Origin: Promethearchaeota archaeon
Lineage (GTDB): Archaea > Asgardarchaeota > Lokiarchaeia > Sigyniarchaeales > SOKP01
Assembly (NCBI GenBank): GCA_019058365.1
Contig: JAHPZE010000026.1
Coordinates: forward strand, 1 to 64,000
Direction of reading: 5' to 3'
DNA: 64,000 nucleotides
Shown here: positions 3,322 through 26,948 of the stretch, piece after piece
Layout: each line of letters opens with the position of its first letter
How positions within the stretch are numbered: position 1 is the first letter of the stretch
Program-made: the position numbers and the translations under genes
The notes under the pieces: generated by a model
Databases searched by the model: none
What the model saw: only the letters and a program-made list of their open reading frames with translations
What the model was told of the DNA's origin: nothing

Positions 3322-4614
3322 TTACGGTTTAGTTATCTTTGGATCCTTTTCCTTATCCCAATTGACTGCAAATAAAAAATCTCTACTAGGTTCATTTTTA
3401 TAGATCAATGGAAATCCACTCACTTTTTCAAATTTAAGAGCTATCTTTTCTAAATAATCATACTCTGGAAAATAATCCTTCCCTTGCTTATCACTTTTTA
3501 ATCTTTCTTTTATTAATAAAGCTTTTGCTTGTAACGTAAATCCTTTTATTTCAAAAAAGTTTGGACTAACATTCTCTATAATTTTGGCATATTCATTAAT
3601 CAGTTTATCATTCAAATTAAGATCTTTAATTGCAGTTAGCCTTACAACCGATCTACAAGATAATGAATTTATTAAATCTAAACTATGCAATATATTATTC
3701 CAACCATTTCTAATCATAGGACGACAGACTTTCTTATAAATCTGGTCATTTGGAGCAGGTAATGTGATATATAACTGTGTAGGTAGGTGTTCTAACTTTT
3801 CAATCTTTTCTGGTAGTGTTCCATTAGTGACTATAAACGTAGTTATATTACGATTTTTAAATTCTTGCACAAATTCAGAAATTCTTGGATATAAAAGAGG
3901 TTCTCCATCAAGAGAAATAGCTGCATGATTGGGTATCATTGCTTCACTATGAGCTTGCATAATTTCATTAGGTGAAGTTAATTCTCTATTAATTAATACT
4001 TCTAACTCATCTCGAGAGCCAATGCAATAATTAATATCATCATCTAATCTAAAATTATTAGATGGGTCATTAGTTGATTTAATAAATTTTTGATTCTTTA
4101 GAAGTGTGAGGGCTCGTTCAATTTTATTCTTTGAAACATGAATATTATTACTAAGAGAATGTATATCATGGATTTGATGACTATTTAAAAGCATATAATA
4201 GAGGATGTCAATCATGATTTCATAATTGTCAAGGTATCGTCTCAATGGTAAATGATTAGTAATGATATCCTTATGATGTCGTAACATATCATCAATAAGT
4301 AATTTAGGGTTATCAGGTTCAACAACAAATTCACTCCCTAGTGACCCAGACTCTATATCCCTCCAACAAAAAACACATTGGTGATTACAAAATGGTAGAG
4401 AAGGGGTATTTTGCATACATCTATGGCTTTGTATTCCAAATACACCCTTATAGCAATTACGATTATTTCTTCCCGTTTCAAGTCTTTGTTCAAGCCAATG
4501 ACAAGGTTTAACAGAAGAATGTTTATTTTCTCCAACAATTCTATATGTTGTTTTTGTGTAAGCCTCAACAAACTCATTTGTGATTTTGTTATCAATGATA
4601 TATCTATCTTTCAT
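3322..4614 (-). CDS. taw1: 4-demethylwyosine synthase Taw1/TYW1 (radical SAM) with internal insertion
   Basis: HSSVKPCHW, CYKGVFGIQSHRCMQNTP, CNHQCVFCWR, AISLDGEPLLYP, VTNGT. Confidence 0.93.
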   Translation of the reverse strand: MKDRYIIDNKITNEFVEAYTKTTYRIVGENKHSSVKPCHWLEQRLETGRNNRNCYKGVFGIQSHRCMQNTPSLPFCNHQCVFCWRDIESGSLGSEFVVEPDNPKLLIDDMLRHHKDIITNHLPLRRYLDNYEIMIDILYYMLLNSHQIHDIHSLSNNIHVSKNKIERALTLLKNQKFIKSTNDPSNNFRLDDDINYCIGSRDELEVLINRELTSPNEIMQAHSEAMIPNHAAISLDGEPLLYPRISEFVQEFKNRNITTFIVTNGTLPEKIEKLEHLPTQLYITLPAPNDQIYKKVCRPMIRNGWNNILHSLDLINSLSCRSVVRLTAIKDLNLNDKLINEYAKIIENVSPNFFEIKGFTLQAKALLIKERLKSDKQGKDYFPEYDYLEKIALKFEKVSGFPLIYKNEPSRDFLFAVNWDKEKDPKITKP

Positions 4615-12119: not shown

Positions 12120-15100
12120 ATGACTACATACTATTTTAAGATTTTAATTCTTGGGGACCCTGACACTATTCATTTTTATGCTTCACGAGCTTTTGGTGAG
12201 CCAGGGGAAGATCAAGAAACACATTTTAAATGGTATAAAGAAACTAAAGTTTTTGATGATATTTGTGATTTAGAAATTGATGCAATTACAAGTATCTCTG
12301 CAGATTTGGATGAAATAATTCCCATGGTAGACGGGATCATATATTTTTTGAATCCTGTAAATGAAGAAGAATCTGAGCTCTTTGAAATGATACTCCCTGA
12401 TATATTTTCAGTAAAACGTGATATCCCTACAATTGTTATGTTTTATGATCAGAATGGAATCTTACCCATTTCCGTTAATGATTTATTACAACATATATGG
12501 GTTAACTTTCCAAGTCTAGAGGCATTCGTGAATCTCCCCCCTAATAATTTTCATCAAGCACTTCAATCTATATGTTTAGCAATGATTAATGGCGATACTC
12601 CATTAAACATTGAAAATGCATGGATGAGATTTCCAATATTTATACAAATGGCAAATATCTATTTTAATAATCAAAATTATTATTATGCGGCACAAGCTAT
12701 TAGAAAAGCTGCTCTAATAGCAGATATATACAATAAAGAAGAATTTTTCATAATCAGTGAACAAGCTGCATATCTTTACTCCAAAATGAATCTATATTTA
12801 GAAGCTAGCAAGATTTTAGAAAAAGTAGATAAAAGAAAATCATTAAATTTTAAAAAACTCTATGCTGATGCTATAATAAGAGAGGGTAATCTTTTCTTCA
12901 ATAGAAATGAGTTTGAACAAGCTGCTACAAATTATGAAAGAGCAGCTCAATGGTCAAGCATAGAATTACTAGACAAGGCCTTTATTTATGAAGCGTTTAA
13001 ACTAGCAATAAGTTCTTGGATTTCAGCTTGCAGAGTTGAGGATGCTTTAAGGATCTTAGATAGTTTACCTCATCAAGATGTCATAATCTTATTAAAAGAA
13101 TTATCAGATAAAATTTGTGCTGGAGCGGATTATTTAGTCAGTATAAATAATTTTGAAGCCGCTAAAGAACAACTATACATAGCAATCAATAAATACCAAC
13201 GTGAAGCCCTTTCTGATGAATTAAAAACTTTAACTAATAAGTTGACTGAAGTCCTTATAAAGCTTTTTATACAACAAGTAAATAACCAAAAAAAGCATGC
13301 TGCTAAAAATACCTATGATGAACTTGAAAATATGTGGAACTCTTATAAAGTAGAAAAAGTAAATTTAGATTCGCCTTTAGAAGAACTAATTAATCTATTT
13401 TTCGTAACTAATAATTTTGGAACTGCAACCATTTTAATAGATAAGCTAAATTCAAGAAAATTAAAACAAAGCTTAGCCAAAATTAGAGATGAATTTGAAG
13501 ATAAGTATGAAGCGTTAAAAAAGAAAGAAGTAGAAGATTATATTAACAGGGGCGAGGAAATAATACGAAATTTTGGTGAAGCGGAAATAGATATCATAGC
13601 AGAAATGAATAAGCAAAAAATAATAGAAGCAAATGAATTTGTTCAGAATAACAATTATTTAAAGGCAGCAAACCTCTTAAAAAACCAGGCAGTATATCTT
13701 AAAAATATTGGCAAAGAAGATATAAAGGATATGGTCCTCACAAAGGCTTTAGATGTATTATTAGAAGGTTTGGAATTTGAAGATTTTTTCACTTTTTTTA
13801 ACGAAATCTCAGTTGATATGAAAAAAAAATATTTAACAAGAATATTTCCAAAATATTTTCAGAAATTACAAGAACTTCGAAAAGTAGAAGATTTTACAGG
13901 AAATGAAAAGATTTTTGAAAATTCAATTAGAATTTATCGGAATCAAATGCTTTATGATCAATCTAAGGAAATTAGTTTAATTTTTATTAAAGTAATTAAA
14001 AGTGAAGCTTTAAGAATTTTAGAACACGAAGGAGATCTTTCAGCAATTAATAAAGCAGAAATGTCTGTAAAAAAAGTTTTAAATATAGCATCAGCATATT
14101 TAGAAAAAGAAGAAAACGTAAATATCACATTTAATAAGATCTACAAGAAAGTTTCTGAAATTTATATTGAATTGAATGACTTACATTTAGCTCAAGTTTA
14201 TAATGATAAAATTGAAAATAAAGAATATAAAACTGAAATACACAAGAAAATTGAAAAGCTAGAAGCTGAGCAAAGTGCTGTTAGATCTAAAAAAGCTATC
14301 GAGACACGTAAAGGTGAAGTATTAAGAGAAAAAGGTTCTATTATTGAAAAAAGAGCACAAGAAGCGAAGTTAGATAAAGATAATCAAATGAGGGAGAGGA
14401 GGGGATTAAAAAGAGCTTATTTTAATGATGGTCTGACTCATTTGAAAAATCAACATTATAATAAAGCTTTTGAAGTGTATAAGAGTACAATCAATCGATT
14501 AAGTTTAATAAAAAAATACAATCTAGCAGGAGTATCATTAGTCGTAGCAATTCTAATACTTATGAAACAGAATAAATTTGAAGATATCAATGAGTTACTG
14601 AATGAGACAAAAACAAAATTATCGGGCTTAGGAAAATCTTTTTCTGAGACATTTCCAGTAACTCTCATAGAATATATAATTGATTTAAAAAATCTTCAAG
14701 AAGAGCAAAAATTCAAAGAATCCTTAAAGTTCTTAGAACGTATTCCATTATTTGAAGAGGAGTTGGTGTTATTAGAAGAATATTTAGGTGTAGATTATCA
14801 GAAAGAAGAAAAAGTAGAAAAGTTAAAAGATAAAGACATTTCAAAGGAACCAGTAAAAGAAATATTATCACGAGCAGAAGTTGGGGAATTATCTAAAAAA
14901 CAAATGGAAATGGATCAGAGGTTTGGAAAAATCCAATCTAAAAAAGGAGATGCTAAAAAAGATAAAGAAAGGATATTTAAGAAAAGAAAACCAATGAGAA
15001 AAAGATACTATGCACCTATATTAGACTTGCTAGAATCACAAAATTATGAAAAAGCAGCAATTAAATACTTAGAATTAGCAAATACACTTTCAAAAAGAAA

Positions 15101-15380
15101 AGATCTTGAAGCTAGTTCTTTAATGGTGAATTTATATGGTTTAGCTCTTTTAAAGGTAGGAGAATCAATAAATGTAATTAAGAATAACATTAATGATTAT
15201 TTAAATAGCTTAGGAGTTAACAAAAAATTAGTTAAAGAGACATTTTATGTAATGCTAATCTCGTTTCTAATTGACAGTAAACTATATAATTTTGAGAAAT
15301 ATTTTCCCAAAATTAAAGAAATGTTGGAAATCCTTCCGTTATTTGAAGAAGAGAATCTTTTGATAGTTATTGAAGAATAA
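12120..15380 (+). CDS. Large protein: degenerate small-GTPase-like N-domain plus TPR/SNAP-like alpha-solenoid
   Basis: FKILILGD, VDGIIYFLN, DIPTIVM strands; repeated Y/F..AA...KA helices; duplicated C-terminal module ending PLFEEE. Confidence 0.75.
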   Translation: MTTYYFKILILGDPDTIHFYASRAFGEPGEDQETHFKWYKETKVFDDICDLEIDAITSISADLDEIIPMVDGIIYFLNPVNEEESELFEMILPDIFSVKRDIPTIVMFYDQNGILPISVNDLLQHIWVNFPSLEAFVNLPPNNFHQALQSICLAMINGDTPLNIENAWMRFPIFIQMANIYFNNQNYYYAAQAIRKAALIADIYNKEEFFIISEQAAYLYSKMNLYLEASKILEKVDKRKSLNFKKLYADAIIREGNLFFNRNEFEQAATNYERAAQWSSIELLDKAFIYEAFKLAISSWISACRVEDALRILDSLPHQDVIILLKELSDKICAGADYLVSINNFEAAKEQLYIAINKYQREALSDELKTLTNKLTEVLIKLFIQQVNNQKKHAAKNTYDELENMWNSYKVEKVNLDSPLEELINLFFVTNNFGTATILIDKLNSRKLKQSLAKIRDEFEDKYEALKKKEVEDYINRGEEIIRNFGEAEIDIIAEMNKQKIIEANEFVQNNNYLKAANLLKNQAVYLKNIGKEDIKDMVLTKALDVLLEGLEFEDFFTFFNEISVDMKKKYLTRIFPKYFQKLQELRKVEDFTGNEKIFENSIRIYRNQMLYDQSKEISLIFIKVIKSEALRILEHEGDLSAINKAEMSVKKVLNIASAYLEKEENVNITFNKIYKKVSEIYIELNDLHLAQVYNDKIENKEYKTEIHKKIEKLEAEQSAVRSKKAIETRKGEVLREKGSIIEKRAQEAKLDKDNQMRERRGLKRAYFNDGLTHLKNQHYNKAFEVYKSTINRLSLIKKYNLAGVSLVVAILILMKQNKFEDINELLNETKTKLSGLGKSFSETFPVTLIEYIIDLKNLQEEQKFKESLKFLERIPLFEEELVLLEEYLGVDYQKEEKVEKLKDKDISKEPVKEILSRAEVGELSKKQMEMDQRFGKIQSKKGDAKKDKERIFKKRKPMRKRYYAPILDLLESQNYEKAAIKYLELANTLSKRKDLEASSLMVNLYGLALLKVGESINVIKNNINDYLNSLGVNKKLVKETFYVMLISFLIDSKLYNFEKYFPKIKEMLEILPLFEEENLLIVIEE

Positions 15381-16382: not shown

Positions 16383-16571
16383 TATTAAAAAAAGTAAAAG
16401 GATGGTAATTGAATTTTAATATTTTTCCTTAGAATTAGATAACTTATTAAATATATAAGTTTGATCTATTTTAAAGATAGACTTGTGAAAATTTAAATCT
16501 TAATCTTTTAAATAGTATCTTAAAAGTTTAATAAATAAGAATAAAAATTAAATCAACCTATTAATAATAGT

Positions 16572-17813
16572 ATGTCTTCAGAAGCTTCTAAAGATTTTAT
16601 AAAAGTCTTTTCGAAATTCTTGGATTCAGAATCCGTGAAAATAAGTAAATTACACGATATTGATGATGTTATAAAATTACCAATTCTATCATACAAATTC
16701 ATAGATAAAGAAGAATCGACAATAATGAAGCAGTTACTAGAAATTTCTACAATCGGAGATGCTTCTAAGTTAAATAAGGATAATCCATTTGATTCCTTAA
16801 CTGAAATTGAAGAGACGGATGAGTCAATTGAATTAGCAGTAAGTCTACAAAAAAAACTTGAAGAATTAAAGGTCAAATACCCCACCCTTGAAGAAAAATT
16901 AAAGAAAGTAATAACCATCAGCTCACTTATTGTGAGTGTTAAAGAAGAAAAAGAGGTAATTGACGAAATAGGACAAAAAGTACTTGTTGCGGGACTAGAT
17001 AATGCAGGAAAAACAGCAACGCTATCGAAATTTGGTGGACGTTTAGGAATAAGTGATATGATCTCAACACGTCCAACGAAGGGAGTTGTTCGAATGAAAT
17101 TTGGAAGCAGTCATTTAAACTTGTATATCTGGGATTTAGGTGGACAAGAAGAATATAGGGAGAGGTATTTAAATAATCCAGAGCAATACTTTCTACAGCT
17201 TGATTTGTTAATTTATATAATAGATGTACAAGATCCAGATAGATTTGATGATGCTCTTGAATATTTTGAGAAAATCATAGACTCATTAATTATCTTGGAA
17301 GAAAATCCGTATATATTGATTTTTATTAATAAATATGACCCAGATTTAAAAAATAACCCTAAAATTCTCTTAAACATAGAACTTTTAAAGGATAATATCA
17401 ATGAACTATTTAAAACCAAGGGTTATGATCTTCATTTGGAGATTTATTTAACATCAATATACTCATTAATCTCACGCGAACCACAATTCGCAAAATATAT
17501 TAAAAATCTTATGAGTGCTAGTTATTCTCTTAGTGATCCAACAGTTAGGAAAGTTGAAGGTCTTGGAAAAACATTAGAAGAAACTTTAAATGCAGTTATT
17601 AGACTATCAGAAAGTTTATCTACTCAGCTTAACGATCTTGATAACCGTCTCAGAGCTATAGAATCAGGAGCATTTCAAGTTGCTCAAAGTGGAATTCCTA
17701 TTGAAATTGCTAATCCAAATCAGCCTTCAGCAAGGCCTCAGGAAAGTGCTAGATTACAAGTATTAAATGAATTAAAGGATTTGTTTGGTAAGAGACGTAG
17801 ATTGGATCTCTAA
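16572..17813 (+). CDS. Arf/Arl-like GTPase with N-terminal extension and C-terminal coiled coil
   Basis: GLDNAGKT, PTKG, WDLGGQ, NKYD, TSI. Confidence 0.9.
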   Translation: MSSEASKDFIKVFSKFLDSESVKISKLHDIDDVIKLPILSYKFIDKEESTIMKQLLEISTIGDASKLNKDNPFDSLTEIEETDESIELAVSLQKKLEELKVKYPTLEEKLKKVITISSLIVSVKEEKEVIDEIGQKVLVAGLDNAGKTATLSKFGGRLGISDMISTRPTKGVVRMKFGSSHLNLYIWDLGGQEEYRERYLNNPEQYFLQLDLLIYIIDVQDPDRFDDALEYFEKIIDSLIILEENPYILIFINKYDPDLKNNPKILLNIELLKDNINELFKTKGYDLHLEIYLTSIYSLISREPQFAKYIKNLMSASYSLSDPTVRKVEGLGKTLEETLNAVIRLSESLSTQLNDLDNRLRAIESGAFQVAQSGIPIEIANPNQPSARPQESARLQVLNELKDLFGKRRRLDL

Positions 17814-18541
17814 ACTTTTACTTTATTCTTTTTTAATAAAGCTTGAATAGTTTTATTAATTGCCAGTAAAAATATAATGAGAAATATAGAAAAAGAAAGC
17901 AAAAAATAACCAATATTATTCAATAACATTGGATTGATTTGGTGATATTGTTTTTCATTTACAACAAACTTCTCTAAATATGTCACTATTTTAAATATTA
18001 GTGGACCAGTTAAATAAAGAGCTATTAGAAATCCTATAATTCCAAAAATGGATCCAAATATAACATCTGAAGGGTAATGTACACCAAGCTGAATCCTAGA
18101 AAAAGAGACTATGACAGCAACTAATAATATTAAAATTGTTATCCAAGGTGATCTTAAAAAAACCAATCCAATCAACAATCCTTGGGACACAATATTATAT
18201 GAATGCCATGACGGAAAACTTCTTGAAGTCGGCTTTCGCTCAAGAACATTTATTTCACCTTCTTCAAATTTTTCATATGGTCTTTTTCTTTTTATTGTTT
18301 GTTTTATCGCTAATACTAGAATGAATCCGGTAAGAAATGTAGCAGAGATATAAGATAATGAAAAGGGATCATACCAAACAAATAAATAAAAAGTTATTAA
18401 AAAAAGCCATAAAGTTTCCCTACCAAAAAAAGAAAAAAACTTTAAGATGATTGTTAGTGGTCTCCCACCAAAACCATTATATTTTATAATTATTCTTTGA
18501 TCCCATTTATCAATTTTATTTGAAAAATCTTTAAATTCCAT
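17810..18541 (-). CDS. PAP2-family membrane phosphatase
   Basis: KxxxKRKRP, SFPSWH, SRIQLGVHYPSD. Confidence 0.92.
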   Translation of the reverse strand: MEFKDFSNKIDKWDQRIIIKYNGFGGRPLTIILKFFSFFGRETLWLFLITFYLFVWYDPFSLSYISATFLTGFILVLAIKQTIKRKRPYEKFEEGEINVLERKPTSRSFPSWHSYNIVSQGLLIGLVFLRSPWITILILLVAVIVSFSRIQLGVHYPSDVIFGSIFGIIGFLIALYLTGPLIFKIVTYLEKFVVNEKQYHQINPMLLNNIGYFLLSFSIFLIIFLLAINKTIQALLKKNKVKV

Positions 18542-19407: not shown

Positions 19408-21300
19408 TTATTCCATAGAATCTTCTTTATCAAAAAAGACTTCATAAAATAATTCTTTTTCTTCAGGTGATGAAGGAGGAGTTATTTTAGTATATCCCCC
19501 AGTTTGAATAATACGAACAGCACTTTTATTTTGAATATGAATATTTCCATACAGCCCTTTCAAACCTCTCTCTTTTGCAATGATAATTATATGTTGATAT
19601 AGAAAAGCTCCAATTCCTTTCCCTCTATAATCTTCTCTCACAATGAAGCTATACTCTCCCATATTTAATTTAGAGTTTAAATAATAGGTTGCATTTCCAA
19701 TCATTTTTTGATGTCCAATTTCCCCAATAAAAGCACCAATCGAAAAAATGTTGTTATAATCAATATTTACCTCAAATTGAGTTTTCGAGTGAGTGAACTC
19801 TTTTTTTAATTCAAAGAATCTTAAATATCTGTCTCTATCACTTAATGAATAATATAAATCTTTTAATAATGGCTCATCGGTTGTTTTCACAGGACGGATT
19901 CTTATTTTTTCCTTGCCTAATGTAGTATAAAAAGTCTCATATTCAGAAGGATAAATACAAATACGACCTTTCTCATCACAAGGTAATAATTGATCAGAAT
20001 AAATATATTTCAAATGTTTGGCAGCATCTAATAGTGATTGCCTAAATTTCGGATGAGCTATACAAATTAGTTCGATTACTCTTTCACGAATACTTTTTCC
20101 ATGCAAATAAGCAACACCCCATTCGGTCACTACATAATGTACATCTCCGCGTGGAAACATTATCCCTGCTCCTTCATCTAAATGAGGCACAATTCGTGAT
20201 TTTTTCCCATCTCGTGAAGTAGATGGGATGATTATGATTGGTTTACCTCCCTTAGAAAAGGCAGCTCCTCTCATAAAATCAATAGTTTCACCAAGTCCTG
20301 AATAGAAACGATAACCCTCTGTTGCAGCATTTACTTGTCCTGTTAAATCAATCTGCCGAGCAGAATTTATAGAAACCATATTGTTATTCATTCCAATATT
20401 TCGAGGGTTGCATACATAATCGGATGGATGAAACTCAATGAAAGGATTGTTATCTACAAATCTATATAATTTTCTTGTACCCAAAGCAAAACTAGTAATA
20501 ATTTTTTCAATATGGAAATTCTTTTTTCGACAGGTTAAAACACCTTCTTCTATAAGTGGTATTATATTATCTGTGATATAGTGAGAATGCATTCCTAAAT
20601 GTTTTTTATCTCCTAAAAACTTTAATGCAGCATTTGGTAGATCTCCAAACCCTACATGAATAGTAGATTTATTTTCTATTAGATTTGCTAAATTTTTACC
20701 TATTCTATCAGCGATTTCATCTGGTTCATCAAAGTGAAACTCTAACAATGGCGTATCATTATATACAAAATAATCTATTTCTTTCATGTGAATAAAACTA
20801 TTTCCTAAAGTACGAGGCATTTGGGGATTAATTTCAGCAATAGTCATATAAGATGATTGTGCTATTGGTTTAGCAATGTCTACATTAATTCCTAAAGAGC
20901 AAAAACCGTACGGATCAGGAGGAGAAACTTGAATCAAAGCAACATCAATATGCTTCCGACCAGTTAAAAATAATGAAGGAATTTCACTAGCATATATCGG
21001 CGTATAATCTGCCTGTCCCTTGTTAATTTCTTCACGAAGTGTCTTCCCTATAAAAAATGCATTATGTCTAAAAAGATCCTCTGCTTTATCTTTAAAATAT
21101 TTTTCAGGACCTATTGTTAAAAAATGGAGAATTTCAGTATCTATTAACTTTTCTGAATTTTTTATTAATTCCGAGGTTAAAAGCTGAGGCTCAGAGCATC
21201 CTGAGTCTATAAAAACTCTATTCCCTGAGATAATTTTTCCTATTGCTTGTTGGGCTGTAATTTCCTTATTCTTCCACTTTTCTTTCCAATTAAAATCCAT
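19408..21300 (-). CDS. Acetyl-CoA hydrolase/CoA-transferase-like domain fused to C-terminal GNAT acetyltransferase
   Basis: DVALIQVSPPD..GFCSLG, IDLTGQV, VVTEWGVAYLHGKS..ER...LI.IAHP.FR; GNAT IRPV...DE, RYLRFF, YRGKGIG. Confidence 0.9.
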   Translation of the reverse strand: MDFNWKEKWKNKEITAQQAIGKIISGNRVFIDSGCSEPQLLTSELIKNSEKLIDTEILHFLTIGPEKYFKDKAEDLFRHNAFFIGKTLREEINKGQADYTPIYASEIPSLFLTGRKHIDVALIQVSPPDPYGFCSLGINVDIAKPIAQSSYMTIAEINPQMPRTLGNSFIHMKEIDYFVYNDTPLLEFHFDEPDEIADRIGKNLANLIENKSTIHVGFGDLPNAALKFLGDKKHLGMHSHYITDNIIPLIEEGVLTCRKKNFHIEKIITSFALGTRKLYRFVDNNPFIEFHPSDYVCNPRNIGMNNNMVSINSARQIDLTGQVNAATEGYRFYSGLGETIDFMRGAAFSKGGKPIIIIPSTSRDGKKSRIVPHLDEGAGIMFPRGDVHYVVTEWGVAYLHGKSIRERVIELICIAHPKFRQSLLDAAKHLKYIYSDQLLPCDEKGRICIYPSEYETFYTTLGKEKIRIRPVKTTDEPLLKDLYYSLSDRDRYLRFFELKKEFTHSKTQFEVNIDYNNIFSIGAFIGEIGHQKMIGNATYYLNSKLNMGEYSFIVREDYRGKGIGAFLYQHIIIIAKERGLKGLYGNIHIQNKSAVRIIQTGGYTKITPPSSPEEKELFYEVFFDKEDSME

Positions 21301-21566
21301 TGCATTTATTCACTCCATTGAGAATGTTCACACTCAACTATAAATTTATTATTCATTAGTATTATATCTAATTAAACTAATATTTCTATTTTCATTCATT
21401 TAAAATTTTTGAAATTATAAATAAAATGTTTAAATTTCATTCATCTCTTTTTTGATTTAGAACATTTCATTTAAAAATTATATATTTTAAATGTTATGAT
21501 TAAATAAAAATTAAAAGTATACTACATGAACTTCAAATTTATTATAATTCAAAAATGTGAAAAAAA

Positions 21567-23546
21567 ATGTCAAAAGAAGAAAGAATGGAAAGTATTCTGA
21601 CAGAAAATCGAATTTTTAATCCCATTGATCTAAATTCTGAATTTGCAAAAACTGGAATATCAGTGGATGAATATAAAAAACTTTACAAACAATCCATAGA
21701 AGATATGGAAGGTTTCTGGGATGAACAAGCAAAATCTTTAGATTGGTTCAAACCATATGATAAAGTTTGGGAAAAAACTGATTTATTTCCTGGTAAATGG
21801 TTTGTTGGTGGAAAACTTAATGTAAGCTATAATGCATTAGATAGACATGTTAAAGCTGGAAAAGGAGATAAAATTGCTCTAATTTGGGAAGCAGATGAGC
21901 CCGGAAATGTAAGAAAGTTTACTTATAATGAACTTTTGAAAGAAGTCAGTAAAGTTTCTAATAGAATGAAAAAGCTAGGATTGAAAAAAGGAGATCGAGT
22001 AACAATATGGTTACCTATGATTCCTGAACTTGCGATCATTATGTTAGCTTGTGCTCGAATAGGTGTGATACATTCGATTGTATTTGGTGGATTTTCAAAA
22101 GAAGCTGTTAAAGATAGAATTGAAGATTCTAATTCTCGACTTCTATTCACAAGTGATGAAACCTTAAGAGCCGGGAAATTTTACCCAAAAATGGAAGATG
22201 TTGTTCAAATTATTAATGATGTTCCCACTATAGAACATGTTGTTGTTGTACAGCGTTCTGGCAGAGACATACCACATACTAACAAGGATATCTGGTATCA
22301 TGACTTTATTGAAGGTATGAGCGAGGAATGTGAACCAGAAATTATGGATTCTGAAGATACATTGTTCATTTTATATACAAGCGGAACGACTGGAAAACCC
22401 AAAGGAGTAAATCATACTACTGCGGGATATATCCTTTATACTTCATTTACTCATAAAATTGTTTTTAATTATCATGAAAGAGATATCTGGTATTGTACGG
22501 CTGATATTGGATGGATAACGGGACATTCTTATATAGTTTATGGTCCATTAGTAAATGGTGCTACATCCCTAATGTTCGAAGGAGTTCCAACATATCCAGA
22601 TGTTGATCGATTTTGGGATATTGTTGAACGTCATAAAGTAACTCATTTTTATACGGCACCTACTGCAATACGTGCTTTAATGAGATATGGTGATGAACCA
22701 GTAAAAAAACATAACTTAAGTTCATTAAAAGTGCTTGGAACTGTTGGTGAACCAATAAATCCAGAAGCTTGGACCTGGTATCATCGTGTAATAGGTAAAG
22801 AACGCTGTCCTATTGTTGACACCTACTGGCAGACAGAAACTGGTGGATTTATTATAACACCAATAGCTACAGCAACTCCAACAAAACCAGGTTCTTGCTG
22901 TGTGCCATTCTTGGGGATTAAACCAGTCATTTTTGATTTAGAGGGTGAAGTAATTACAGAACCAAACGAAGGAGGATACTTAGCAATTGCTCAAAGTTGG
23001 CCGGGTATGTTACGCGACGTTTGGGGTGATACTGAGAGATTTAAATCAACTTATCTCGAAAAATATCCTGGGCATTATTACACGGGTGATGGAGCTCGAC
23101 GAGATGAAGATGGATATTATTGGATTTTAGGTAGACTTGATGATGTTATTAAAGTGTCTGGACATAGAATAGGCACTATGGAAGTCGAGTCTGCTTTAGT
23201 TAGTCACCCTAGTGTTGCTGAAGCTGCTGTTGCTCCTTTTCCTCATAAAATCAAGGGTCAAGCAATTTGGGCATTCGTGACTTTAATTCAAGGAGTTCAA
23301 AAATCAGCTAAATTAGCCAATGAGATCAGGATGCATGTAAGAACAGAAATAGGACCTGTTTTCCAACCAGATGTAATTCAATTTGCTGATGACTTACCAA
23401 AAACTCGAAGTGGCAAGATAATGAGGCGAATTTTGAAAGCAATTGCCACAGGTACTGATATTGGAAATGTTACAACATTAGCTGATCCCTCTGTAGTTGA
23501 TGACCTATTAGAAGAACGAAAGAAATTGGATGTAGAAGTAGGTTAA
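21567..23546 (+). CDS. acs: Acetate--CoA ligase (AMP-forming acetyl-CoA synthetase)
   Basis: YTSGTTGKPKG, ADIGWITGHSY, VGEPINPEAW, DTYWQTETGG, PKTRSGKIMRR. Confidence 0.97.
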   Translation: MSKEERMESILTENRIFNPIDLNSEFAKTGISVDEYKKLYKQSIEDMEGFWDEQAKSLDWFKPYDKVWEKTDLFPGKWFVGGKLNVSYNALDRHVKAGKGDKIALIWEADEPGNVRKFTYNELLKEVSKVSNRMKKLGLKKGDRVTIWLPMIPELAIIMLACARIGVIHSIVFGGFSKEAVKDRIEDSNSRLLFTSDETLRAGKFYPKMEDVVQIINDVPTIEHVVVVQRSGRDIPHTNKDIWYHDFIEGMSEECEPEIMDSEDTLFILYTSGTTGKPKGVNHTTAGYILYTSFTHKIVFNYHERDIWYCTADIGWITGHSYIVYGPLVNGATSLMFEGVPTYPDVDRFWDIVERHKVTHFYTAPTAIRALMRYGDEPVKKHNLSSLKVLGTVGEPINPEAWTWYHRVIGKERCPIVDTYWQTETGGFIITPIATATPTKPGSCCVPFLGIKPVIFDLEGEVITEPNEGGYLAIAQSWPGMLRDVWGDTERFKSTYLEKYPGHYYTGDGARRDEDGYYWILGRLDDVIKVSGHRIGTMEVESALVSHPSVAEAAVAPFPHKIKGQAIWAFVTLIQGVQKSAKLANEIRMHVRTEIGPVFQPDVIQFADDLPKTRSGKIMRRILKAIATGTDIGNVTTLADPSVVDDLLEERKKLDVEVG

Positions 23547-23794: not shown

Positions 23795-24430
23795 ATGAAA
23801 GAAGAAGAATCGTTAGAAAAATTAAAAAGCGCAATTTTAAAAGGAGATCCACATGAAGCAGTTGATTTGGTTAATAGATCCATTAAAATGGGAGTAGAAG
23901 TCAAAGAGATTTTGAATAGAGCAATTCTTAAAAGCGCTGAAGATGCTGGGAATTTATATGAAGAGGGCGAATATTTTCTTCCTGATTTGCTAATGACAGG
24001 TGATGCCATTAATGCCGCTACTGAAATATTAAAGAATTCATTAAAAGAAAAATCTGAAATAGAATCTAAAGGTACTATATTAATTGGAACAGTAGAAGGT
24101 GATATCCATGATATAGGCAAAAGTTTGGTAGTCTCACTATTAAAAGGGCAAGGCTTTGATGTTGTTGATTTAGGATCTGATGTTCCACCAGAAGAGTTTC
24201 TTCGAAAAGCAAAAGAAATAAATCCCAATCTGATAGGATTGAGTGGATTAATGACAATGAGCATCTCTAAAATGATAGAAACAGTTAATTTGCTTAAGAA
24301 TGAAAATATACAGTCTAAAATAATCATTGGTGGCGGAATATTGTCAAAAGAATCGTGTGAAATGATAGGCGCAGATGACTTTGCCAAAGATGGCTGGGAA
24401 GGAGTTAAAAAAATAAATAATTTAATTTAA
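23795..24430 (+). CDS. Corrinoid (cobalamin-binding) methyltransferase protein, MtaC/MtbC-like
   Basis: YFLPDLL cap, GTVEGDIHDIGK (DxHxxG), DLGSDVP, GLSGLMT, IIGGG. Confidence 0.93.
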   Translation: MKEEESLEKLKSAILKGDPHEAVDLVNRSIKMGVEVKEILNRAILKSAEDAGNLYEEGEYFLPDLLMTGDAINAATEILKNSLKEKSEIESKGTILIGTVEGDIHDIGKSLVVSLLKGQGFDVVDLGSDVPPEEFLRKAKEINPNLIGLSGLMTMSISKMIETVNLLKNENIQSKIIIGGGILSKESCEMIGADDFAKDGWEGVKKINNLI

Positions 24431-24452
24431 ATCTAAGAGGTATAAGAATAAA

Positions 24453-25532
24453 ATGGCTAAAGATTGGGTCGCTTCTGTAAATAGAATATTTAGGACAATA
24501 TCAGGATCAAAAAGAGTTGATAAAGTTCCGTTTCTGGCATTCGCCGGGGAACAAATGATTTGCCGAGTAACCGGAAAAACTGTGAAAGAATTATATAGTT
24601 CCCCAAAAGTCTATGCTAATGCTATTATAACCACTTTTGAGTTTTTGAATACCGATTCTATAAATGTTCCAAGTGCCTATGCAGGACCAAGTGAAGGTTT
24701 GGCATTTGCGGAAGCGAACAATAAATTAGATGCAATTAAATGGTTTGATTATCAACCTCCAATGTGTAAACAAGGAGTCATTTGTAAATCTGAAGAAGAT
24801 ATTGAAAAGCTGGAAATTCCAGATCATAGTAAGAATAATCTATGGAAAACTTCCTTACTAGCTGCAAAAATGATTAATGAAAAAATTAAATTTCCCCAGG
24901 TAATCAGTTTAAGTATTTGGTCTGTTGTTCAGGAGTTACGTGGCATAGAAGCCTATAAGGATATGCGCCGAAATCCGGATTTGTTATTAAAACTGTGCGA
25001 AAAAATTTTTGAATCTCAAATGGATATTTATGAGAATTGGCTTGAAATTGTAGGTATGCCTCCTAATGTTTTTATTGCAGGATACGCATTTAACCGTCAT
25101 ATGATGAGTTTTCAAGATTCTATGCGCTATGAAGGCCAGTTTATTAAGAGGATGATGAATAAAATAAAAGTTCCTTTTATGCTACATAATTGTGGAACTT
25201 CACCCTATTTTACAGAAGTCGTTAATGAAATTAATTTTATTGCCGTTAATGGTAGTCATCCGTTAGATATTGAATATTGGATTGATTTTAAAAAGAAACA
25301 TCCAAAAATTGTAATAATAGGTGCTAATATTGACGTAAGTCGAGAAATGCTAACAGGAACTCCTTCTGATGTTGAAAAAAAGGTAAAAGAAAACATTTTA
25401 AACCTAGCTCCTGGGGGTAGGTATATTTGTTGCCCCGTTTGTAGCTTACCATGGGGAGTACCCATTCCAAATATCTTAGCGATTCCAAAAGCAATTGAGA
25501 AATATGGACATTATCCACTAAAAGTAAATTAA
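24453..25532 (+). CDS. UroD/MtaA-CmuA family methyltransferase (MT2-like)
   Basis: HNCG and C-terminal CPVCSLP (H-x-C...C Zn-ligand pattern), GTPSDV; adjacent to corrinoid protein; AGAGG SD. Confidence 0.8.
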   Translation: MAKDWVASVNRIFRTISGSKRVDKVPFLAFAGEQMICRVTGKTVKELYSSPKVYANAIITTFEFLNTDSINVPSAYAGPSEGLAFAEANNKLDAIKWFDYQPPMCKQGVICKSEEDIEKLEIPDHSKNNLWKTSLLAAKMINEKIKFPQVISLSIWSVVQELRGIEAYKDMRRNPDLLLKLCEKIFESQMDIYENWLEIVGMPPNVFIAGYAFNRHMMSFQDSMRYEGQFIKRMMNKIKVPFMLHNCGTSPYFTEVVNEINFIAVNGSHPLDIEYWIDFKKKHPKIVIIGANIDVSREMLTGTPSDVEKKVKENILNLAPGGRYICCPVCSLPWGVPIPNILAIPKAIEKYGHYPLKVN

Positions 25533-25586
25533 AATTTAAAATTCATCTAAAAATATTACTCTTCCATTATTTTTTTTTCTTAGTTC

Positions 25587-25727
25587 CGATATGGGAAAAT
25601 AATGCTAAAAATATTAAAAGCTATTACCGCTGGCAATGATATTGGAAATGTAACCACATTAGCAGATCCCTCTGTTGTAGATGATTTATAAGTAGAACGG
25701 AAGAAAATGGATGTTGACATAGGTTAA
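25587..25727 (+). pseudogene. Degenerate duplicate of the acs 3' end (141 bp)
   Basis: Translates RYGKIMLKILKAITAGNDIGNVTTLADPSVVDDL*VERKKMDVDIG*; acs 23406-23546 reads RSGKIMRRILKAIATGTDIGNVTTLADPSVVDDLLEERKKLDVEVG*. Confidence 0.92.
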
Positions 25728-25937: not shown

Positions 25938-26780
25938 TCAACCTTTTGCAAAAGTGCCAATTGTGTATAGTAAATCTAATTTGATTTTAATTTCTTTTCC
26001 TAATAACATCTTTATACAGGCTCTATTTTCTAGTTCAGTTAAGTTAAATAATTCAAAAATTCTTTTTGGGAAGTATTGATGTTTAGCAATAATCAAATGA
26101 TCAGTTCCTAATACAATACTCCTATTAATTATCTGTGATGCTGCCTCTAAATTTGTGGCAATCAATGGTCCTAACCGCTTGTTTGCTAATAATCCATATC
26201 CTTCATTTTCAATGATTAAAATCTTAGCGCCCAATTTAATTCTCATGTTTAAATAATTAGTTCTATCAAATCCCATTGCTTTTTTATCTAGATTTAACAC
26301 CCAATCTGGAATTGTATTTAAAATGTTAACTTCTTTATAAGCAATTCTTAATTGTTGAGGTTGTATTGGCAACTGATACATCTTACCATAAAATCTTTTT
26401 TTAAAGCCAAACTTTTTATAAATGGGCTCTCCTAACTTGGAAGCATAAAGAATCTTGGTGTCACAATTCATTTTATTTGCAATTTCTAACAAATTCCTAA
26501 AAATTTCGGTTCCTATTCTCATTCCTCTGTATTCCTGCAATACAGCCATGTATCCAAAAGTACTAACTTTTTCAAATAAAAAAACACCCCCTATACCGAT
26601 AATCTCTCCTTTCTCTTCAGCAATAAGAAATTTTCCAATTTCACTTTCTATTAAAGCTTTCCATATTTTTTCTTCTCCTTTAACGTCTACTGGAGGTTTC
26701 CTATCAAAAGCAGAGTACAAAATGTTTATACATTTGGAAATCTCCTTATCAGTAGGTTCTCTAATATTATATTTTGTCAT
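25938..26780 (-). CDS. GNAT N-acetyltransferase (YitH-like, two-domain)
   Basis: MAVLQEYRGMRIG, YAS..G..IYKKFGF, LD..A.GFDR, LGPLIA; start ATG 26780 (ORF track gives GTG 26789). Confidence 0.85.
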   Translation of the reverse strand: MTKYNIREPTDKEISKCINILYSAFDRKPPVDVKGEEKIWKALIESEIGKFLIAEEKGEIIGIGGVFLFEKVSTFGYMAVLQEYRGMRIGTEIFRNLLEIANKMNCDTKILYASKLGEPIYKKFGFKKRFYGKMYQLPIQPQQLRIAYKEVNILNTIPDWVLNLDKKAMGFDRTNYLNMRIKLGAKILIIENEGYGLLANKRLGPLIATNLEAASQIINRSIVLGTDHLIIAKHQYFPKRIFELFNLTELENRACIKMLLGKEIKIKLDLLYTIGTFAKG

Positions 26781-26948
26781 AACAATCACTACTAATCATA
26801 CTTCTTAAAAGAATAAAAATAAATAAATCAATTTTTTATTAATATTTCAAAGATTTTTTTGTTTTCTTTACTTTACATTAAATTCTAAGATTTTAAGGTT
26901 TTAAAACTGAGTTTTGACAGTAACCTGATATTAGATAAGATAAAAACA

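What the first reader, a model, noticed from the sequence alone, without database searches (positions are those of the whole stretch)
19408..23546. Apparently inactive CoA-transferase fused to a Pat-type GNAT, divergent from acs: a candidate acyl-CoA-sensing Acs acetylation switch
Known: family I acetyl-CoA hydrolases/4-hydroxybutyrate CoA-transferases use a catalytic Glu in LG(I/V)H(S/T)E, and Acs is inactivated by Pat-type GNAT acetylation of the Lys in PKTRSGK. Seen: here the motif is LGMHSHY, with Glu replaced by His (codon 20581-20583). The usual GxGG loop reads GLGE and QxGIG reads HVGFG. The C-terminal GNAT has the Pat-like IRP...DE...RYLRFF signature. acs shares the promoter region and keeps the target Lys (23415-23417). 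Inference: a pseudo-enzyme acts as an allosteric acyl-CoA/acetate sensor controlling Acs acetylation, using a different sensor domain from the NDP-forming-ligase domain of bacterial Pat.
Basis: partly seen in the sequence, partly recalled or inferred. Interest (0 to 1): 0.72.

Follow-up and report, generated by a model that had tools for sequence, protein, structure and literature searches.

The report
Pat-type acetyltransferase with rebuilt CoA-transferase domain
Next to the only acetyl-CoA synthetase gene of this Loki-type Asgard archaeon lies a gene joining a Pat-type protein acetyltransferase to a CoA-transferase-like domain that has lost all three catalytic elements yet is strongly conserved; it most likely switches the synthetase off by acetylation, with a kind of regulatory domain not listed in published classifications.

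Summary
ORF 19408-21300(-) is a 630-aa fusion of a 4-hydroxybutyrate-CoA-transferase-like domain and a Pat-type GNAT. It lies 266 bp from, and divergent to, the genome's only true acs, which keeps Lys617.

His240 aligns with the catalytic Glu of every solved homologue. New here: mapping onto AarC shows that all pocket elements changed together. Gln267/Glu294/Asn347/Gly388 correspond to His215/His240/Cys297/Glu338.

The domain is not decaying. It is as conserved as the GNAT (80.4 vs 79.5 % mean identity), with dN/dS 0.05-0.07.

The fusion architecture itself is widespread in bacteria and archaea, and many members keep the catalytic set. The His type was found only in the window's own GTDB family (31 of 41 sampled genomes). 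It is nested among Glu-keeping forms, and an intact paralogue sits elsewhere in this genome.

acs is divergent and within 2.5 kb in 20 of 21 informative genomes.

The most likely reading is a Pat-like Acs acetylation switch whose regulatory domain derives from a class I CoA-transferase. Ligand sensing is inferred only by analogy with PatZ. The rebuilt His/His/Cys/acid pocket leaves open a metal site or a new catalytic site.

The scan has found this system before on other genomes. I found no paper describing it.

The parts
19408..21300 (-). Fusion gene, 630 aa: CoA-transferase-like domain plus Pat-type GNAT
   Evidence: AF2 model pLDDT 91.5, pTM 0.88
20011..21300 (-). N-terminal domain (res 1-430) with the 4-hydroxybutyrate CoA-transferase fold and no catalytic set
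   Evidence: PDB phmmer 4e-117 to 9vag; Foldseek TM 0.93-0.95 to 3gk7 and 2oas; as conserved as the GNAT; dN/dS 0.05-0.07
20581..20583 (-). His240 codon (CAC), in place of the nucleophile Glu (AbfT 238, AarC Glu294)
20656..20658 (-). His215 codon, in place of the pocket Gln (AarC Gln267)
20410..20412 (-). Cys297 codon, in place of the internal oxyanion-hole Asn (AarC Asn347)
20287..20289 (-). Glu338 codon, in place of the external oxyanion-hole Gly (AarC Gly388, second G of GxGG)
19483..19911 (-). Pat-type GNAT domain (res 464-606), with E549 (codon 19654-19656) and the R559-x-x-G562-x-G564 acetyl-CoA loop
   Evidence: alignments to SlPatA 4nxy, PatZ 9isq and SsPat 3f8k; PatZ E809 described as a potential catalytic site in PMC12184503
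21301..21566 (.). 266-bp divergent intergenic region shared by the fusion gene and acs
21406..21455 (.). 50-bp block nearly invariant among five related loci while its flanks diverge; holds TATA-like A/T runs; candidate shared promoter or operator
   Evidence: function inferred
21567..23546 (+). acs, AMP-forming acetyl-CoA synthetase, 659 aa; the only true Acs in the genome
23415..23417 (+). Codon of Lys617 in PKTRSGK, the conserved acetylation-target lysine of Acs

Best explanation
The gene encodes a Pat-like protein lysine acetyltransferase. Its C-terminal GNAT domain acetylates Lys617 of the neighbouring Acs and so inactivates it. One of the genome's sirtuins or HDAC-type deacetylases reverses this. 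The N-terminal 430 residues derive from a class I (4-hydroxybutyrate-type) CoA-transferase that no longer transfers CoA. [quoted passage not shown] Shown: domain architecture, loss of all three catalytic elements, purifying selection, Pat-type GNAT motifs, and conserved acs pairing. Inferred: Acs as the substrate, ligand binding, and allostery.
For: Architecture and fold. Catalytic set: His240, Cys297 and Glu338 stand where AarC has Glu294 (nucleophile), Asn347 (internal oxyanion hole) and Gly388 (external oxyanion hole). The mapping goes through E. coli ScpC, and the residue roles come from PMC4876117. The pattern H-H-C-G[E/D] is fixed in the clade, against Q-E-N-GG in the canonical fused and stand-alone forms. 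The domain is kept by selection: N-domain 80.4 % vs GNAT 79.5 % mean pairwise identity over 7260 pairs; dN/dS 0.071 and 0.048 for unsaturated pairs. The GNAT aligns with SlPatA, PatZ and SsPat, including E549 under PatZ E809 and the P-loop. These two fusions are the only Pat-type GNATs in the genome. acs is the only true Acs. It is divergent and adjacent in 9 of 9 informative related loci, and within 2.5 kb in 20 of 21 genomes of the family where both genes lie on one contig. Among Glu-keeping bacterial relatives, 13 of 70 loci also have an Acs within 6 kb. Four SIR2 and four HDAC-type genes are present. Precedent: the PatZ regulatory domain is an enzyme relic (catalytic His replaced by Leu) that binds acetyl-CoA and activates the GNAT.
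Against: No experiment exists on any member. I found no paper on the fusion. CoA-binding residues could not be checked, because model coordinates are not returned. The pocket residues that changed are exactly those next to the CoA sulfur. In AarC the sulfur lies 2.9 A from Glu294, so ligand specificity may have changed altogether. Genus g3 of the same family has acs but only the Glu-type fusion, so the His type is not required wherever acs exists. Gene neighbourhood is only circumstantial evidence for the substrate.
Confidence: 0.6

Rival explanations
1. The old active site has been turned into a new functional centre: a His/His/Cys/carboxylate metal site or a Cys-His-acid triad. It either catalyses something, such as acyl-CoA hydrolysis or self-acylation on Cys297, or senses metal, redox state or free CoA thiol rather than acyl-CoA.
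For: Four contacting pocket positions changed together to typical metal-ligand or nucleophile residues. They are fixed: His215 121/121, His240 116/121 and acid at 338 121/121; Cys297 100 % in the 71-sequence clade sample. His238 is invariant. In AarC the equivalent atoms lie within about 3-4 A of one another and of the CoA sulfur. Simple loss of function would not predict such uniform replacements.
Against: No coordinates, so the geometry is untested. Position 240 is Tyr in 4 members and Leu in 1 of the 121. Glu and Asp alternate freely at 338. No known family with this arrangement was matched.
Confidence: 0.2
2. The N-domain is only a structural scaffold for oligomerisation and/or docking of Acs. 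It binds no small-molecule ligand.
For: 4-hydroxybutyrate CoA-transferase homologues are oligomeric (own knowledge). The PatZ regulatory domain also shapes the Acs binding pocket and drives tetramer formation. Across the fused family, many lineages have differently degenerate active sites, so catalysis is dispensable there.
Against: A pure scaffold would not need strict conservation of the rebuilt pocket residues. 60 positions shared with active enzymes, including cleft loops, remain conserved.
Confidence: 0.12
3. The N-domain still transfers or hydrolyses CoA esters using another carboxylate, for instance Glu/Asp338 on the neighbouring loop.
For: An acidic residue has appeared next to the old nucleophile position and is invariant as Glu or Asp.
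Against: Both oxyanion-hole elements are also gone. The external one is described as strictly conserved in the whole superfamily. Free Glu/Asp interchange is unlike a glutamyl-CoA thioester nucleophile, which is always Glu in the enzymes aligned.
Confidence: 0.05

Closest known systems
Type I Pat / PatZ (YfiQ) of Salmonella enterica and E. coli, with the CobB sirtuin
   Same: C-terminal Pat-type GNAT with the same catalytic Glu and P-loop. A large N-terminal domain descended from an acyl-CoA-handling enzyme that lost its catalytic residue. Acs is the substrate, at the conserved Lys of PKTRSGK. In PatZ the relic domain binds acetyl-CoA and activates the GNAT.
   Different: [quoted passage not shown] The host is archaeal. 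The gene lies beside acs. The pocket was rebuilt rather than simply inactivated.
Type III GNAT acetyltransferases (MtPat/MsPat with cAMP, actinobacterial ACT-GNAT, MxKat with NADP+)
   Same: A ligand-binding N-terminal domain of about 300-400 aa in front of a Pat-type GNAT, and Acs as substrate. MtPat's GNAT is a sequence hit (4orf; NF058543).
   Different: Those regulatory domains are dedicated small-molecule binders unrelated to CoA-transferases.
[quoted passage not shown]
   Same: Same fold (TM 0.93 to 3gk7) and 37-41 % identity to the 4-hydroxybutyrate enzymes. 60 positions are conserved in common.
   Different: Nucleophile Glu, internal oxyanion Asn, external oxyanion Gly and pocket Gln are replaced by His, Cys, Glu/Asp and His. 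A GNAT domain is fused.
Glu-keeping CoA-transferase-GNAT fusions (uncharacterised; own-genome paralogue C34:265883-267787, many bacterial phyla)
   Same: Same two-domain architecture and about 45-53 % identity. Sometimes near acs (13 of 70 loci).
   Different: They keep Q-E-N-GG, so the transferase half may be active. The own-genome copy has no acyl-CoA ligase neighbour.
Bacillus subtilis acsA-acuABC (AcuA GNAT / AcuC deacetylase)
   Same: An acetyltransferase gene placed divergently from the acs gene it controls (gene order from own knowledge; AcuA/AcuC roles).
   Different: AcuA is a stand-alone GNAT with no fused regulatory domain. Its deacetylase is in the same operon.
Sulfolobus Pat (3f8k)
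   Same: Archaeal Pat-type GNAT sharing the LYLRFF and GE..hhV motifs.
   Different: 160 aa, GNAT only. Its known substrate is the chromatin protein Alba (own knowledge).

Membership tests
Pat-type GNAT protein lysine acetyltransferases | GNAT fold with the acetyl-CoA P-loop R/Q-x-x-G-x-G/A | tested here: met
   R559-G-K-G562-I-G564; Pfam PF00583; aligned with the P-loops of SlPatA, PatZ and SsPat; motif definition in PMC8556138
Pat-type GNAT protein lysine acetyltransferases | Glu equivalent to PatZ E809 (described as a potential catalytic site), in the A/G-E-x-x-h-h-V strand | tested here: met
   E549 (GEYSFIV) lies under AEFAVLV of PatZ and AEVAFLV of SlPatA; at least 90 % conserved in alignment A2
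Pat-type GNAT protein lysine acetyltransferases | N-terminal GNAT signature hRP...D...Y.RFF shared by Pat enzymes | tested here: met
   IRP 468-470 and RYLRFF 491-496; R469, R494 and Y492 invariant in 121 homologues
Pat-type GNAT protein lysine acetyltransferases | Acetylates the conserved Lys of AMP-forming acyl-CoA synthetases | not testable with these tools
   Only gene neighbourhood and the presence of Lys617
Type I/II Pat (PatZ, SlPatA) | Regulatory domain homologous to NDP-forming acyl-CoA synthetase | tested here: not met
   The N-domain is PF02550+PF13336. PDB hits to Pat/PatZ cover only the GNAT.
Class I CoA-transferase, acetyl-CoA hydrolase/4-hydroxybutyrate CoA-transferase family | Two-domain CoA-transferase fold | tested here: met
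   Pfam 204 and 100 bits; Foldseek TM 0.93-0.95 to 3gk7 and 2oas
Class I CoA-transferase, acetyl-CoA hydrolase/4-hydroxybutyrate CoA-transferase family | Nucleophile Glu (AarC Glu294, AbfT position 238) | tested here: not met
   His240; never Glu in 121 homologues
Class I CoA-transferase, acetyl-CoA hydrolase/4-hydroxybutyrate CoA-transferase family | External oxyanion hole Gly of GxGG (AarC Gly388), described as strictly conserved in the superfamily | tested here: not met
   Glu338; always Glu or Asp in the clade; role from PMC4876117
Class I CoA-transferase, acetyl-CoA hydrolase/4-hydroxybutyrate CoA-transferase family | Internal oxyanion-hole carboxamide (AarC Asn347) | tested here: not met
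   Cys297, 100 % in the clade, against Asn in 89-95 % of Glu-keeping forms
AMP-forming acetyl-CoA synthetase (neighbour gene) | Scores above the curated cut-off of the Acs equivalog and keeps the A10 lysine | tested here: met
   TIGR02188 956 bits vs 725; NF001208 990 bits vs 657; Lys617 in PKTRSGK

The most novel reading that the evidence does not exclude
The former CoA-transferase active site has been converted into a new His215/His238/His240/Cys297/Glu-or-Asp338 centre, either a metal site or a Cys-His-acid triad. It sits exactly where the CoA sulfur or thioester binds. The domain would then read the free-CoA to acyl-CoA ratio (thiolate ligation or self-acylation of Cys297), or redox or metal state, and pass this to the GNAT. 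This would be a sensing mechanism not described for any protein acetyltransferase.
Probability: 0.2. Interest if true: 0.8.

Novelty: new variant of a known kind. Interest (0 to 1): 0.6.

Why it matters
Control of Acs by lysine acetylation is the textbook case of metabolic regulation by protein acetylation in bacteria. The published classifications of GNAT acetyltransferases that I read (2021 review, 2025 PatZ structure paper) list five types, and none has a CoA-transferase-derived regulatory domain.

This fusion family occurs in hundreds of bacterial and archaeal species. It would therefore be a sizeable unrecognised class.

The Asgard His-type subfamily gives a natural experiment, because a live-looking and a rebuilt copy sit side by side in one genome. 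That allows a direct test of how an enzyme domain is recruited as a regulator.

It also gives a concrete handle on acetate and acetyl-CoA control in Asgard archaea, whose metabolism is central to models of eukaryote origins.

Tried and rejected
(1) Chance or sequencing error at the Glu codon: rejected, because the change is fixed across 121 homologues and 31 genomes.

(2) A decaying pseudogene domain: rejected, given dN/dS 0.05-0.07 and conservation equal to the GNAT.

(3) The fusion as an Asgard or single-locus novelty: rejected. At least 596 stretches in genome contigs, from many phyla, encode relatives.

(4) All fusions being pseudo-enzymes: rejected. The canonical Q-E-N-GG set is kept in 61+18 fused sequences of my sample, and 31 of 68 fused 50 %-cluster representatives keep Glu plus GG.

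(5) Informative neighbours for the Glu-type paralogue: none found. They are a radical SAM enzyme, a DNA glycosylase, TatD and UxuA.

(6) The second GNAT at 25938-26789 as a conserved third partner: no match in the 80 related loci.

(7) Literature searches for the fusion found nothing relevant. Searches for AbfT Glu238 and RipA E249 also found nothing, so the AbfT residue number rests on my own knowledge plus the alignment offset.

(8) Measuring distances between the new pocket residues: not possible, because model coordinates are not returned.

(9) The in-frame TAA reported inside the G138 fusion match is just the natural stop.
Full report
**What is there.** The window is from an Asgard (Loki-type) archaeon. 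GC content is about 29 %. TFIIB and Arf/Rag-like GTPase genes lie nearby, and the closest homologues are named Promethearchaeota, Lokiarchaeota, Hodarchaeota and similar.

ORF 19408-21300(-) gives a 630-aa protein. It has Pfam AcetylCoA_hydro (res 8-182), AcetylCoA_hyd_C (274-427) and a GNAT domain (504-597). Across a 266-bp gap lies the divergent acs gene, 21567-23546(+). Acs scores far above the curated Acs cut-offs.

**The N-domain has the fold but not the chemistry.**
- The best solved relatives are 4-hydroxybutyrate CoA-transferases (9vag 4e-117; 3eh7, 2oas, 3gk7). In all four printed alignments His240 lies under the Glu of LG[IV]H[ST]E, HVGFG under QxGIG and GLGE under GxGG.
- An AlphaFold model built on 123 sequences is confident (pLDDT 91.5, pTM 0.88). 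It superposes on AbfT and the Shewanella enzyme with TM 0.93-0.95.
- To go beyond motif-spotting I mapped the site onto AarC, the best-studied member of the superfamily. Its paper (PMC4876117) defines four elements:
  - Glu294 is the nucleophile.
  - Asn347 is the internal oxyanion hole and the buttress of Glu294.
  - Gln267, Glu294, Gly388 and Phe392 line one small pocket about 4 A from the end of the CoA analogue, with the CoA sulfur 2.9 A from Glu294.
- E. coli ScpC aligned to AarC fixes the numbering. ScpC aligned to the family profile (hhalign probability 99.8 %) gives: AarC Gln267/Val270/Glu294/Asn347/Gly388/Phe392 = His215/Phe218/His240/Cys297/Glu338/Phe342.
- So the nucleophile and both oxyanion holes are gone, not the Glu alone.

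**The domain is rebuilt, not decayed.**
- Across 291 aligned relatives the canonical set is Q-E-N-GG(Q), in stand-alone and in fused proteins alike. The window's clade has H-H-C-G(E/D)T almost without exception.
- Among 121 close homologues, position 240 is His 116, Tyr 4, Leu 1. Position 338 is Glu 64, Asp 57. His215 and His238 are invariant. Cys297 is 100 % in the 71-sequence clade sample.
- The N-domain is as conserved as the catalytic GNAT: mean pairwise identity 80.4 % vs 79.5 %, and about half of the columns at least 95 % conserved in each.
- dN/dS is 0.071 (window vs L001, dS 0.46) and 0.048 (L002 vs L005, dS 0.63).
- Sixty positions remain shared with active enzymes.
- Four mutually contacting pocket positions have therefore become His, His, Cys and a carboxylate, under strong selection. 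This is why I keep a metal site or Cys-His-acid centre as a live alternative to a passive ligand pocket. I could not test the geometry, because model coordinates are not returned.

**The GNAT half is Pat-type.** Its best solved relatives are the GNAT domains of Streptomyces PatA (4nxy), PatZ (9isq/9it0), Sulfolobus Pat (3f8k) and mycobacterial Pat (4orf). E549 lies under the Glu of the AE-A--V strand, which is PatZ E809. The R559-x-x-G-x-G564 loop, IRP and RYLRFF are all aligned (PatZ roles). In the whole 4.74-Mb genome only this protein and its paralogue carry such a GNAT.

**Family context changes the picture.**
- The architecture is not rare. A scan of one genome per species found at least 596 stretches encoding relatives. 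They come from Planctomycetota, Chloroflexota, Thermodesulfobacteriota, Myxococcota, Acidobacteriota and others, and from Asgard, Thermoplasmatota and Thermoproteota archaea.
- Of the 80 loci kept, the 10 closest (69-95 % identity, all archaeal) have the His pattern. Nearly all the other 70 keep LG[IV]HTE and GxGGQ.
- Among 50 %-identity cluster representatives, 31 fused proteins keep Glu plus GG, 10 keep Glu only and 27 have lost it in various ways. That sample is ranked by similarity to a degenerate query, so these proportions are rough.
- A tree of the N-domain (quick search, LG+G4) places the His clade (SH-aLRT 99) inside a group whose deeper branches keep Glu. Those branches include an Asgard paralogue clade.
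- The window's own genome holds that paralogue (C34:265883-267787, 53 % identity) with LGVHSE and GIGGQVDF intact. Its neighbours are uninformative.
- In a sample of 201 genomes of the phylum, 92 have a fusion. Matches of at least 69 % identity occur only in the window's own GTDB family, in 31 of 41 genomes, and most of these also carry the Glu-type copy.
- The His type is thus a family-level innovation. It most simply arose by duplication of a Glu-keeping fusion.

**Link to acs.**
- acs is the only true Acs in the genome. The next best AMP-forming ligases are 30 % identical or less.
- In the related loci, acs is divergent and adjacent in 9 of 9 cases where the contig allows it.
- Combining the two genome searches, 14 genomes have the pair about 200-310 bp apart. 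Six more have them divergent with a 1.5-2.5 kb gap. One has an acs fragment 13 kb away.
- Genus g2 has neither gene in 4 of 4 genomes. Genus g3 has acs with only the Glu-type fusion. The His type is therefore common with acs but not obligatory.
- Thirteen of the 70 Glu-keeping loci also have an Acs within 6 kb. My rough estimate of the chance expectation for a 12-kb flank in a genome of a few Mb is about half a per cent.
- A 50-bp block of the intergenic region (21406-21455) is nearly invariant among five loci while its flanks diverge. It contains TATA-like runs and may be the shared promoter or operator; this is inference.
- Four SIR2 and four HDAC-type genes could supply the reverse reaction.

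**Mechanism.** The best-supported reading (confidence 0.6) is a Pat-like switch. The GNAT acetylates Acs Lys617. The CoA-transferase-derived domain regulates or assists it, as the inactive ACD-like domain does in PatZ. There, loss of a catalytic His left an acetyl-CoA-binding regulatory domain that opens the GNAT and helps form the Acs pocket. Ligand binding and allostery are inferred by this analogy only.

Rivals are a neo-functional metal or triad centre (0.2), a pure scaffold (0.12), and residual CoA chemistry through Glu/Asp338 (0.05). The last is disfavoured by the loss of both oxyanion holes and by free Glu/Asp interchange.

**Novelty.** The 2021 review and the 2025 PatZ structure paper both list five GNAT acetyltransferase types. 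Their regulatory domains are NDP-forming-ACS-like, cAMP-binding, ACT or NADP-binding, or absent. No CoA-transferase type appears, and my text searches found no paper on the fusion. I therefore rate it a new variant of a known kind.

This scan has already flagged the same system on other genomes. One follow-up reached the same main verdict (e1-3085810).

Noticed in passing
window 25584-25724 (+), with 23795-25532: A decayed copy of the last 47 codons of acs (74 % identical, one internal stop) lies downstream of a corrinoid-protein gene (23795-24430) and a URO-D/MtaA-like methyltransferase gene (24453-25532). The two-gene cassette seems to have inserted at the acs 3' end and duplicated it.
   Followed up: partly
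L095:3906-3935 and 3801-3830; L096:1236-1265; L097:1226-1255 (acs of three related genomes, genus g6): The acs orthologues carry exact 30-nt inserts with an in-frame TAG inside the conserved YWQ|TETGG motif. One genome has a second insert in GEPI|NPEAW. In the YWQ|TETGG inserts, the hairpin is kept by different sequences in the three genomes. In L095 that insert fits a 4-bp helix flanked by two 3-nt bulges, and its removal restores the motif, so these look like tRNA-type (BHB) mini-introns. The GEPI|NPEAW insert could not be fitted cleanly to a BHB. The scan has reported such introns in other Asgard genes.
   Followed up: partly
G000:C34:265883-267787 (-) = L094:7884-9788: A second CoA-transferase-GNAT fusion in the same genome (634 aa, 53 % identity) has the catalytic Glu and GxGG intact. 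It has no acyl-CoA ligase neighbour.
   Followed up: partly
G000:C18:16398-21789: A sirtuin gene (C18:21256-21789, -) sits directly beside two AMP-forming acyl-CoA ligase genes (16398-17951 and 19499-21046). This is another hint that acyl-CoA ligases are under reversible acylation control here.
   Followed up: no
window 25938-26789 (-): A 283-aa protein with GNAT (Acetyltransf_9/_7/_1) and Acetyltransf_18 domains, Eis-like (my reading of the domain pair), lies near acs. No counterpart was found in the 80 related loci.
   Followed up: partly
proteins P0126, P0129 (about 960 aa); P0156, P0174, P0203 (955-1013 aa): Some distant members of the fusion family carry an extra domain of about 330 aa, in front (P0126, P0129) or behind (P0156, P0174, P0203). 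Several of them have degenerate catalytic sites.
   Followed up: no
proteins P0227, P0238, P0244, P0253, P0254, P0256 and similar stand-alone forms: A subgroup of stand-alone 4-hydroxybutyrate-CoA-transferase-like proteins has Gly at the nucleophile position and His at the Asn position (Q-G-H-GGQ). This may be a different active-site arrangement.
   Followed up: no
window 12120-15380 (+) and 16572-17813 (+): A 1086-aa ORF has no Pfam match. A 413-aa protein has an Arf/Gtr1-RagA-type small GTPase domain. Both are typical Asgard eukaryote-like genes.
   Followed up: no
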